Assembly: GCA_009914755.4 (NCBI GenBank)
Contig: CP086569.2
Location: 13,760,001-13,824,000, forward strand
Direction: 5' to 3'
DNA length: 64,000 nucleotides
DNA from: the human T2T-CHM13v2.0 reference genome, Homo sapiens
Positions 51,926 to 52,334 of this stretch are shown here, one piece after another; within the stretch, counting starts at the first letter, position 1; every line of letters starts with the position of its first letter. A model generated the notes under the pieces. It was not told the origin of the DNA. It made no database searches and saw only the letters and a program-made list of their open reading frames with translations. The position numbers and the translations under genes were made by a program.

Positions 51926-52334
51926 ACCTATGCCAGTGTGCGTTAAGGGCCTAGGTCCCCCGGTAGGTGTGTTATCACCAGGGTCATTCAGTATATAATT
52001 GTTTCATTGTTTCGTGAAAACAAGGGACCTATGCCAGGGTGCGTTAAGGGCCTAGGCCTAGGTCCCCTTGTAGGTGTGTTATAATCAACGTCATTCAGTA
52101 TGTAATTGTTTCATTGTTTCTTCATCACTATGCCAGGGTGCGTTAAGGGCCTAGGCCTAGGTCCCCTGGTAGGTGTGTTATCATCAACGTCATTCAGTAT
52201 GTAATTGTTTCATTGTTTCTTCATCACTATGCCAGGGTGCGTTAAGGGCCTAGGCCTAGGTCCCCTGGTAGGTGTGTTATCATCAACGTCATTCAGTATG
52301 TAATTGTTTCATTGTTTCTTCATCCTGTGATGCT
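51926..52334 (+). repeat. Minisatellite of 4 tandem copies of a 99-101-bp unit, about 0.87 kb upstream of the DDX3Y ATG. It is consistent with the MSY2 (DYS440) minisatellite reported to act as a testis-specific DDX3Y promoter.
   Basis: The unit ...ctatgccagggtgcgttaagggcctaggcctaggtcccctggtaggtgtgttatcatcaacgtcattcagtatgtaattgtttcattgtttcttcatca recurs with a period of 99-101 bp, starting at 51926, 52027, 52138 and 52237. Two unit subtypes occur: copies 1-2 begin gaaaacaagggacc, and copies 3-4 begin tcatcactatgcc. Confidence 0.9.

What the first reader, a model, noticed from the sequence alone, without database searches (positions are those of the whole stretch)
51926..52334. Four-copy ~100-bp minisatellite 0.9 kb upstream of the DDX3Y start codon, consistent with MSY2
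A clean non-Alu tandem array of 4 units, with a period of 99-101 bp and two unit subtypes, sits just upstream of the DDX3Y CpG island. Its position and unit size match the MSY2/DYS440 minisatellite described upstream of DBY/DDX3Y. That array has been reported to harbour testis-specific transcription start sites, giving germ-cell transcripts with extended 5'UTRs. The copy number is a known slowly mutating Y marker. If this is MSY2, each unit is a candidate start site and the subtype order is itself informative.
Basis: partly seen in the sequence, partly recalled or inferred. Interest (0 to 1): 0.55.

Follow-up and report, generated by a model that had tools for sequence, protein, structure and literature searches.

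The report
MSY2 minisatellite upstream of human DDX3Y
The four-copy ~100-bp repeat is the already described human Y-chromosome minisatellite MSY2 (DYS440), which is part of the published testis-specific distal promoter and long 5' leader of the fertility gene DDX3Y, so the finding is correct but not new.

Summary
A four-unit tandem array lies at window 51916-52324 (409 bp; units of 101, 110, 99 and 99 bp). It ends 884 nt upstream of an ATG that opens MSHVVVKNDPELDQQ, which is DDX3Y exon 1.

Eleven genomic primers published for MSY2 and DDX3Y exon-T (Rauschendorf et al. 2011) fall at their predicted positions with one constant offset (GRCh37 chrY = window + 14,963,640). The published Fig. S1 sequence aligns at 98.5-99.2%, and nearly all differences are PDF-reading errors. 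Four units are found only in humans; other primates examined have two.

The literature already reports testis-only DDX3Y transcripts that start in unit 2 (T-TSS-II) and just downstream of the array (T-TSS-I). It also reports use of the 3- versus 4-copy state as a slow Y-haplogroup marker.

My own additions are small. Only unit 1 has a TATA box, 30 nt upstream of a CA in unit 2. A transcript from that site would begin with a -28 kcal/mol hairpin. Each 99-bp unit adds two upstream ATGs. Each unit carries a doubled SOX-core motif.

Verdict: already known, low interest.

The parts
51916..52016 (+). MSY2-1, 101 bp. This is the older unit. It carries the only TATA box and the inverted repeat GGGACCTATGCC/GGCCTAGGTCCC.
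   Evidence: MARP2for hits exactly at 51916. Boundaries come from BAC AC004474 53854-53954 and Fig. S1. Sequence; inverted repeat I1.
52017..52126 (+). MSY2-2, 110 bp. This unit holds the published testis start site T-TSS-II.
   Evidence: Second MARP2for hit at 52017. BAC positions 53955-54064. RT-PCR mapping described in the paper.
52127..52225 (+). MSY2-3, 99 bp, a human-specific extra copy.
   Evidence: MARP3for bridges units 2/3 at 52125. Differs from the matching part of unit 2 at 3 sites.
52226..52324 (+). MSY2-4, 99 bp, identical to MSY2-3.
   Evidence: MARP3for bridges units 3/4 at 52224, and flank primer 1726for starts at 52325. 0 differences from unit 3.
51992..51999 (+). TATA-like box TATATAAT in unit 1. 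The same position in units 2-4 reads TATGTAAT.
   Evidence: CAGTATATAATTG at 51989 versus CAGTATGTAATTG at 52096, 52195 and 52294. [quoted passage not shown]
52021..52022 (+). CA dinucleotide 30 nt downstream of the TATA box, the predicted T-TSS-II. It has not been mapped to the nucleotide experimentally.
   Evidence: Position; the paper's in silico prediction is. Bracketed to about 52018-52029 by a negative MARP2for result together with a testis-positive chimp primer 12 nt into MSY2-2. The bracket is my inference.
52024..52066 (+). Predicted cap-proximal RNA hairpin formed by the inverted repeat in unit 2 (-28.1 kcal/mol over 52022-52080).
   Evidence: Inverted repeat I2. Fold z-scores are -2.5 for the 59-nt start and -3.5 for the whole of unit 2. 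Prediction only.
52378..52379 (+). T-TSS-I, the 'TA' where five capped testis cDNAs start (GRCh37 15,016,018/019), 54 nt downstream of the array.
   Evidence: Paper text and Fig. S1; converted with the primer offset.
52022..52685 (+). Exon-Ta, the testis 5'UTR exon running from predicted T-TSS-II to the Ta donor (GT at 52686-52687). The Tb variant ends at 52784 (GT at 52785-52786).
   Evidence: Splice sites marked in Fig. S1 and located in the window.
53093..53154 (+). TSS-I region, the common proximal promoter start sites used in all tissues. It lies within the CpG-rich stretch.
   Evidence: Paper gives 15,016,733-15,016,794. Primer 2067for is exact at 53093. CpG o/e.
53129..53252 (+). DDX3Y exon 1. 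Acceptor 1a (AG 53127-53128) gives a start at 53129. Acceptor 1b (AG 53204-53205) gives a start at 53206. ATG at 53208; the exon ends at 53252 before GTGAGT.
   Evidence: Downstream exons are about 95% identical to DDX3X chains in the PDB.

Best explanation
The array is the human four-copy allele of the Y-specific minisatellite MSY2 (DYS440). It lies inside the distal, testis-specific promoter and 5'UTR 'exon-T' of DDX3Y.

Shown here by sequence: identity, position and unit structure.

Shown in the literature: in testis only, DDX3Y transcripts start within unit 2 (T-TSS-II) and 54 nt downstream of the array (T-TSS-I). They are spliced from exon-T to exon 1 (variants Ta-1b, Ta-1a, Tb-1b) and use proximal polyadenylation sites. 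The long leaders reduce translation through secondary structure and upstream ATGs.

Inferred mechanism: unit 1 supplies the core promoter (TATATAAT at 51992) for initiation about 30 nt downstream, at the CA at 52021/22 in unit 2. Units 2-4 are then transcribed as leader. They contribute a stable hairpin 3 nt from the 5' end and six of the nine upstream ATGs. The array would therefore act both as promoter DNA and as a translation-damping 5'UTR module, and copy number would set the uATG load.

History: units 1 and 2 are an old duplication shared across primates. Units 3 and 4 are recent human-specific 99-bp duplications of unit 2.
For: Identity:
- Eight primer sites are exact and three more match after removing one extra letter in the machine-read PDF. 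All sit at window = GRCh37 - 14,963,640.
- Fig. S1 aligns at 98.5-99.2%, with nearly all differences in homopolymer lengths.
- The array is 409 bp and ends 884 nt before the ATG, against the paper's 409 bp and 885 nt.
- The downstream gene opens MSHVVVKNDPELDQQ, and later exons are DDX3-type.
- Chimp, orangutan, macaque and marmoset have two units, and in chimp, macaque and marmoset (the species with a flank primer) they abut the same flank, so four units indicates human.

Function (literature):
- Testis-only RT-PCR products with repeat primers in human, chimp and macaque.
- Five capped cDNAs start at T-TSS-I.
- Attenuation by structure and uATGs, from Jaroszynski 2011 as summarised in Vogt 2022.

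Mechanism (computed here):
- The TATA box is present in unit 1 only, with a CA at +30.
- A -28.1 kcal/mol hairpin starts at nt 3 of the predicted RNA.
- uATG counts are 9 for T-TSS-II leaders, 1 for T-TSS-I leaders and 0 for TSS-I leaders, with two per 99-bp unit.

History: unit 3 = unit 4 (0/99 differences), unit 2 versus 3 has 3/99 differences, and unit 1 versus 2 is 83% identical.
Against: - T-TSS-II has never been mapped to a nucleotide. The authors found no capped 5' end inside MSY2 in DBTSS and could not clone one by RLM-RACE, so a genuine cap site in unit 2 rests on RT-PCR primer walking.
- Three-copy alleles occur in fertile men and define a common East Asian lineage, so copy number is not tightly constrained.
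- The hairpin and uATG effects are my predictions for this sequence. I could not read the primary translation study.
- No expression data could be examined with these tools.
Confidence: 0.8

Rival explanations
1. MSY2 is a largely neutral minisatellite that happens to lie upstream of the real testis promoter. The functional testis start would be T-TSS-I at 52379. RNA containing the repeat would be rare upstream initiation or RT-PCR-detectable noise, and the array would be at most generic upstream promoter DNA.
For: Only T-TSS-I is backed by capped cDNAs, and no capped end was found in MSY2. Marmoset has the duplicated units but no MSY2-containing transcripts. Three-copy alleles are tolerated in fertile men and are lineage markers. 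The array has ordinary composition (GC 45%, CpG o/e 0.43).
Against: Repeat-containing products were testis-specific in three catarrhine species. Primers upstream of or at the start of unit 2 gave no cDNA product, which argues against read-through from further upstream. Unit 1 is 101 bp long in all five primates, and catarrhine units are >93% identical to human over about 25-30 My. TATA-to-CA spacing of 30 nt is found only in catarrhines, the group that shows the transcripts.
Confidence: 0.2
2. Every unit is an independent start site, so copy number would set the number of promoters.
For: The authors note other conserved YA/Inr-like motifs in the repeats and do not exclude variable start sites. 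The MARP3for assay cannot exclude extra starts in units 3 or 4.
Against: Units 2-4 have TATGTAA instead of TATATAA. Units 3 and 4 lack the 11-nt head that contains the predicted CA initiator. Two MARP3for products about 100 nt apart show that at least some transcripts include the 2/3 junction, so they start in unit 2.
Confidence: 0.1
3. The array works mainly as a testis enhancer through repeated transcription-factor sites, for example the doubled SOX/SRY-core ATTGTT in each unit, rather than as a core promoter or leader.
For: There are eight AACAAT-core sites in 409 bp, against 1.17 per kb in the window, and one full WWCAAWG site per unit. The authors themselves propose an enhancer role for the repeats.
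Against: The motif count is inflated by the repetition and is not an independent statistic. The motif is short and AT-rich. No binding data or motif library was available. Marmoset has the units but no MSY2 start.
Confidence: 0.1

Closest known systems
MSY2 / DYS440 minisatellite (Bao et al. 2000, Gene 244:29; Rauschendorf et al. 2011, PMC3039753)
   Same: It is the same locus. The 409-bp extent, four units of 101/110/99/99 bp, distance to the DDX3Y ATG, primer sites and flanks all agree.
   Different: Nothing differs at sequence level beyond errors in the machine-read supplement. This window carries the common 4-copy allele, not the 3-copy variant.
DDX3Y distal testis promoter / exon-T transcript class (T-TSS-I, T-TSS-II; Ta-1b, Ta-1a, Tb-1b)
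   Same: All published landmarks are present at the expected positions: TATA in unit 1, CA in unit 2, TA at 52378/79, both GT donors and both AG acceptors.
   Different: Transcription itself could not be tested here. My additions are predictions: the cap-proximal hairpin, the per-unit uATG count and the 52018-52029 bracket for T-TSS-II.
MSY1 (DYF155S1) and classical hypervariable minisatellites
   Same: A tandem array of units tens of bp or longer on the male-specific Y, used as a lineage marker (PMC2599865 abstract).
   Different: MSY2 has only 3-4 long units, is not GC-rich (45%), evolves slowly, and is conserved as a two-unit structure across primates. MSY1 is highly variable in both length and structure.
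Promoter-proximal regulatory minisatellites such as the INS VNTR (IDDM2)
   Same: A tandem repeat upstream of a gene, proposed to influence its transcription; the authors themselves draw this analogy.
   Different: In MSY2 part of the array is transcribed into the 5'UTR. No phenotype linked to copy number has been reported: the authors found no variation among their azoospermic patients.

Membership tests
MSY2 / DYS440 | Lies about 885 nt upstream of the DDX3Y (DBY) start codon on the same strand | tested here: met
   Array ends at 52324 and the ATG is at 53208, giving 884 nt. The ATG opens MSHVVVKNDPELDQQ. The paper states 885 nt.
MSY2 / DYS440 | [quoted passage not shown] | tested here: met
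   Four units of 101, 110, 99 and 99 bp; the paper's description is.
MSY2 / DYS440 | Sequence identity to the published repeat units and flanks | tested here: met
   MARP1for, MARP2for (x2), MARP3for (x2) and 1726for are exact at their predicted positions. Fig. S1 aligns at 98.5% over the block, and every difference is a single letter in or beside a base run, as expected from machine reading.
MSY2 / DYS440 | Y-specific (absent from the X and the autosomes) | not testable with these tools
   No human genome is searchable here. The unit occurs only in this array within the window. The lack of hits in microbial and metagenome collections says nothing about this.
MSY2 / DYS440 | Slow 3/4 copy-number polymorphism among Y lineages | not testable with these tools
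   Literature only: Bao 2000 as cited, and MSY2.2 separating O* from O1.
DDX3Y distal testis promoter (exon-T) | Testis-specific transcripts initiating in MSY2-2 and at T-TSS-I | not testable with these tools
   No expression data available here. Published RT-PCR, 5'RACE and DBTSS results are.
DDX3Y distal testis promoter (exon-T) | Ta and Tb GT donors and 1a and 1b AG acceptors at the published positions | tested here: met
   GT at 52686 and 52785; AG at 53127 and 53204, each in the published sequence context.
TATA/Inr core promoter | TATA box (TATAWAAR) 28-34 nt upstream of a YA initiator | tested here: met
   TATATAAT at 51992 matches 7 of 8 consensus positions, with CA at 52021/22 (+30). 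The motif is present, but its function was not tested.
Translation-attenuating 5' leader (uORFs plus cap-proximal structure) | Upstream ATGs and stable 5' structure present in the long leader and absent from the short one | tested here: met
   uATG counts of 9, 1 and 0 for T-TSS-II, T-TSS-I and TSS-I leaders; a -28.1 kcal/mol hairpin at nt 3-45. The functional effect is known only second-hand.
Classical hypervariable GC-rich minisatellite | Short GC-rich units, many copies, high mutation rate | tested here: not met
   Units are 99-110 bp, there are 4 copies, and GC is 45%. The locus is described as slowly evolving.

The most novel reading that the evidence does not exclude
MSY2 copy number could act as a germline translation dial. 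Each 99-bp unit adds two upstream ATGs to the T-TSS-II leader, and unit 2 adds a cap-proximal hairpin. Three-copy Y lineages such as O1/MSY2.2 would then make a less repressed DDX3Y mRNA in spermatogonia than four-copy lineages. The same hairpin might also explain why capped 5' ends in MSY2 have not been cloned. A separate possibility is that the doubled SOX-core motifs in each unit are the testis-specific activator sites.
Probability: 0.1. Interest if true: 0.4.

Novelty: already known. Interest (0 to 1): 0.12.

Why it matters
DDX3Y is the main candidate gene for AZFa-deletion germ-cell loss. [quoted passage not shown] MSY2 marks the primate-specific distal promoter and long leader thought to underlie that restriction, and it also serves as a slow Y-lineage marker. 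All of this has been in the literature since 2000 and 2011, so finding it again in the reference sequence confirms that the scan can pick out a real regulatory repeat but adds no new biology. The gap that remains is experimental: a nucleotide-level, cap-verified start site inside the repeat, and a test of whether copy number changes DDX3Y output.

Tried and rejected
- Scans of public contig collections for other copies of the unit (two patterns in metagenome contigs, one in genome contigs) found nothing. This is expected, because those collections are microbial. No copy-number comparison across individuals or primates was possible.
- An Rfam gathering scan of the whole window gave 0 matches, so no known structured RNA family overlaps the array.
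- Jaroszynski et al. 2011 (translation control by exon-T) and Bao et al. 2000 (the original MSY2 description) are not held. I rely on how later papers summarise them.
- A literature search for CAGE or TSS data on DDX3Y in testis found nothing relevant.
- Four primers did not match exactly at first. Three carry one extra letter in the machine-read table, and Table S3 gives the correct form of 1313for. The fourth is an exon 2-3 bridging reverse primer and cannot match genomic DNA contiguously.
- I considered a clean microhomology origin for the human 99-bp duplication, between CCTATG at the head of unit 2 and CCTGTG in the 3' flank. That would give a 98-bp period and the junction TTCATCCTATG. 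The observed junction is TTCATCACTATG with a 99-bp period, so one extra or changed base is unexplained (read; unresolved without ape sequences).
- I considered an Alu or other transposable-element origin. The unit has no other copy in the window, and the T24 run at 51616-51639 is not followed by Alu sequence.
- The sigma-70 promoter and terminator scanner was not used because it does not apply to a eukaryotic locus.

Full report
**Observation**

Window 51.6-53.6 kb contains a clear head-to-tail repeat. Tandem Repeats Finder reports a 99-bp period, 3.0 copies, 98% matches and score 578 at 52029-52324. A 198-bp row extends to 51948 and takes in an older, more diverged copy. The ungapped repeat finder returns one family of four copies. 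A 31-nt core of the unit occurs four times in the 64-kb window, all in the array, against 0.00 expected from shuffles. The array is real and not a chance feature.

**Gene context**

The ATG at 53208 opens MSHVVVKNDPELDQQ and is followed by a GTGAGT donor. Open stretches further downstream encode DEAD-box helicase exons. A 131-residue concatenation of them matches DDX3X chains in the PDB at E = 1.7e-59, with about 95% identity over the aligned part. That is what the Y paralogue DDX3Y should give. CpG observed/expected rises to 1.0-1.45 between about 52800 and 53200 and again at 53400-53700. The array itself has CpG o/e 0.43 and GC 45%.

**Identity**

Rauschendorf et al. 2011 (PMC3039753) describe MSY2 (DYS440; Bao et al. 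2000) as follows:
- three or, more commonly, four ~100-nt tandem copies;
- located at GRCh37 chrY 15,015,556-15,015,964;
- 885 nt upstream of the DDX3Y ATG.

Their Table S1 lists primers with reference positions. Eight primer sites match the window exactly, including both sites of the repeat-specific MARP2for and both sites of MARP3for. All share one offset: GRCh37 = window + 14,963,640. Three further primers fall at their predicted positions once a single extra letter is removed. Table S3 prints one of them, 1313for, in the form that matches the window, so these are errors in the machine-read PDF. The last primer bridges exons 2-3 and cannot match genomic DNA.

With this offset the published array is window 51916-52324. 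The unit boundaries from BAC AC004474 give MSY2-1 at 51916-52016 (101 bp), MSY2-2 at 52017-52126 (110 bp), MSY2-3 at 52127-52225 (99 bp) and MSY2-4 at 52226-52324 (99 bp).

The published Fig. S1 sequence, as read from the PDF, aligns to the window at 99.2% upstream of the array, 98.5% over the array and 98.9% downstream. Nearly all differences are base-run length errors.

**Species**

Chimpanzee, orangutan, macaque and marmoset have two units. In chimpanzee, macaque and marmoset, the species with a flank primer, the downstream-flank primer (CTGTGATGC... in chimpanzee and macaque, CTGTGACGC... in marmoset) starts at the base after MSY2-2. Four units therefore identify the window as human. By the offset it corresponds to roughly GRCh37 chrY 14,963,641-15,027,640.

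**Anatomy**

- Units 3 and 4 are identical (0 differences in 99).
- The matching 99 bp of unit 2 differ from units 3 and 4 at three positions: 52028, 52069 and 52083.
- Units 1 and 2 are 83% identical, with a 6-bp GGCCTA duplication and a 3-bp indel between them.
- Units 3 and 4 lack the 11-nt head AAAACAAGGGA found in units 1 and 2.

The array is thus an old duplication shared across primates plus two recent human-specific 99-bp duplications. At a Y mutation rate of about 0.8e-9 per bp per year (a value from my own knowledge), two 99-bp copies should differ by about one site after 6 My. Three differences between units 2 and 3 and none between 3 and 4 fit a first duplication early in the human lineage and a later second one. 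The numbers are too small to date anything.

**Published function**

Testis RNA, and no other tissue tested, yields DDX3Y cDNAs that extend into the repeat. MARP3for (the 2/3 and 3/4 junctions) gives two products about 100 nt apart. MARP1for and MARP2for give none. This places the start, T-TSS-II, in unit 2.

Five capped testis cDNAs start at 15,016,018/019, which is the TA at window 52378/79 (T-TSS-I).

The leader, 'exon-T', is spliced from GT donors at 52686 (Ta) or 52785 (Tb) to AG acceptors at 53127 (1a) or 53204 (1b). All four sites are present in the published context.

Repeat-containing transcripts are testis-specific in human, chimpanzee and macaque. They are absent in marmoset and mouse.

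A later paper from the same group summarises that the long leaders form complex secondary structures and carry upstream ATGs that reduce translation (Jaroszynski et al. 2011, as cited in PMC9142519). I could not read that study or Bao et al. 2000 directly.

The 3-copy state is used as marker MSY2.2 to separate haplogroup O* from O1.

**What the sequence adds**

1. *TATA box.* Only unit 1 has TATATAAT (51992). Units 2-4 read TATGTAAT at that position. The CA at 52021/22 lies 30 nt downstream, as the authors noted.

2. *Bracket for T-TSS-II.* The human MARP2for primer (52017-52037) was negative. The chimpanzee primer that starts 12 nt into MSY2-2, equivalent to human 52029, was testis-positive. 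Together these bracket T-TSS-II to about 52018-52029, which includes the predicted CA. This is my inference and assumes the human and chimpanzee sites are the same.

3. *Cap-proximal hairpin.* Units 1 and 2 contain the inverted repeat GGGACCTATGCC/GGCCTAGGTCCC. An RNA starting at 52022 is predicted to fold from its third nucleotide into a -28.1 kcal/mol hairpin (z = -2.5; whole unit 2, z = -3.5). Hairpins of this strength near the cap are known to impede ribosome loading (general knowledge). This one might also hinder 5'-end cloning, which the authors reported as failing.

4. *Upstream ATGs.* The T-TSS-II leader (666-765 nt depending on splice form) has nine upstream ATGs. Six lie in units 2-4, two per unit. 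The T-TSS-I leader has one and the common TSS-I leader has none. Copy number therefore sets the uATG load directly.

5. *SOX-core motif.* Each unit carries a doubled ATTGTTTC, the reverse complement of the SOX/SRY HMG-box core. That makes eight cores in 409 bp, and the paper does not discuss them. Because the copies are repeats this is not an independent enrichment. I treat it only as a lead.

**Rivals**

- *Neutral array.* The array could be neutral DNA next to the real testis start at T-TSS-I. In favour: no capped end has been found in MSY2, and 3-copy men are fertile. Against: testis specificity in three catarrhine species, negative upstream primers, strong conservation of the two-unit structure, and TATA-CA spacing that tracks the presence of the transcripts.
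- *Every unit a start site.* Not supported. Units 2-4 lack the TATA box, and units 3-4 lack the initiator-bearing head.
- *Enhancer.* An enhancer role is possible and could coexist with the promoter and leader role.

**Searches that gave nothing**

- Contig scans for related copies: no hits.
- Rfam scan of the window: no hits.
- Literature search for CAGE data on DDX3Y in testis: nothing relevant.

**Verdict**

The element is already known in locus, sequence, polymorphism and proposed function. Interest is low. The untested points that remain are a cap-verified start site inside the repeat and whether copy number changes DDX3Y translation.

Noticed in passing
window 51998-52013, 52105-52120, 52204-52219, 52303-52318: Each MSY2 unit contains a doubled ATTGTTTC, the reverse complement of the SOX/SRY HMG-box core AACAAT. 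That gives eight core sites in 409 bp, and one site per unit fits WWCAAWG. The MSY2 promoter paper does not mention this. The enrichment is not independent because the units are repeats.
   Followed up: partly
window 52022-52080: The inverted repeat in unit 2 predicts a -28.1 kcal/mol RNA hairpin starting 3 nt from the predicted T-TSS-II 5' end. It might both reduce translation and explain the authors' failure to clone capped 5' ends in MSY2.
   Followed up: partly
window 52126-52128 and 52225-52227: The junction of the human-specific 99-bp duplications reads TTCATC-A-CTATG. Simple microhomology between CCTATG (head of unit 2) and CCTGTG (3' flank) would give TTCATCCTATG and a 98-bp period. 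One extra or changed base is unexplained.
   Followed up: no
window 26367-27326: A (CCCTCT)n-like stretch is followed by a GC-rich 37-40-bp VNTR (GGGAAGTGAGGAGCC...CCGCCC...). This resembles the 5' hexamer and VNTR of an SVA retrotransposon in the USP9Y-DDX3Y intergenic region. The SVA assignment is from memory and was not tested.
   Followed up: no
window 48660-49264: Two adjacent Alu-like copies in reverse orientation (TTTTTTTTGAGACAGAGTCTCGC...), reported by TRF as repeats with 163-bp and 147-bp periods.
   Followed up: no
window 51616-51639: A pure T24 run lies 277 bp upstream of MSY2. It is not followed by Alu sequence and its origin is unknown.
   Followed up: no
window 18180-18263, 36123-36292, 22946-23098, 47662-47706: Simple repeats: (TTCC)n at two sites, a (TC)n(CA)n compound microsatellite, and a perfect (AAT)15. 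Some could be Y-STR candidates.
   Followed up: no
window 1-~9500: By the GRCh37 offset the window starts near chrY 14,963,641. From memory that should include the last USP9Y exons on the + strand. I did not check this.
   Followed up: no
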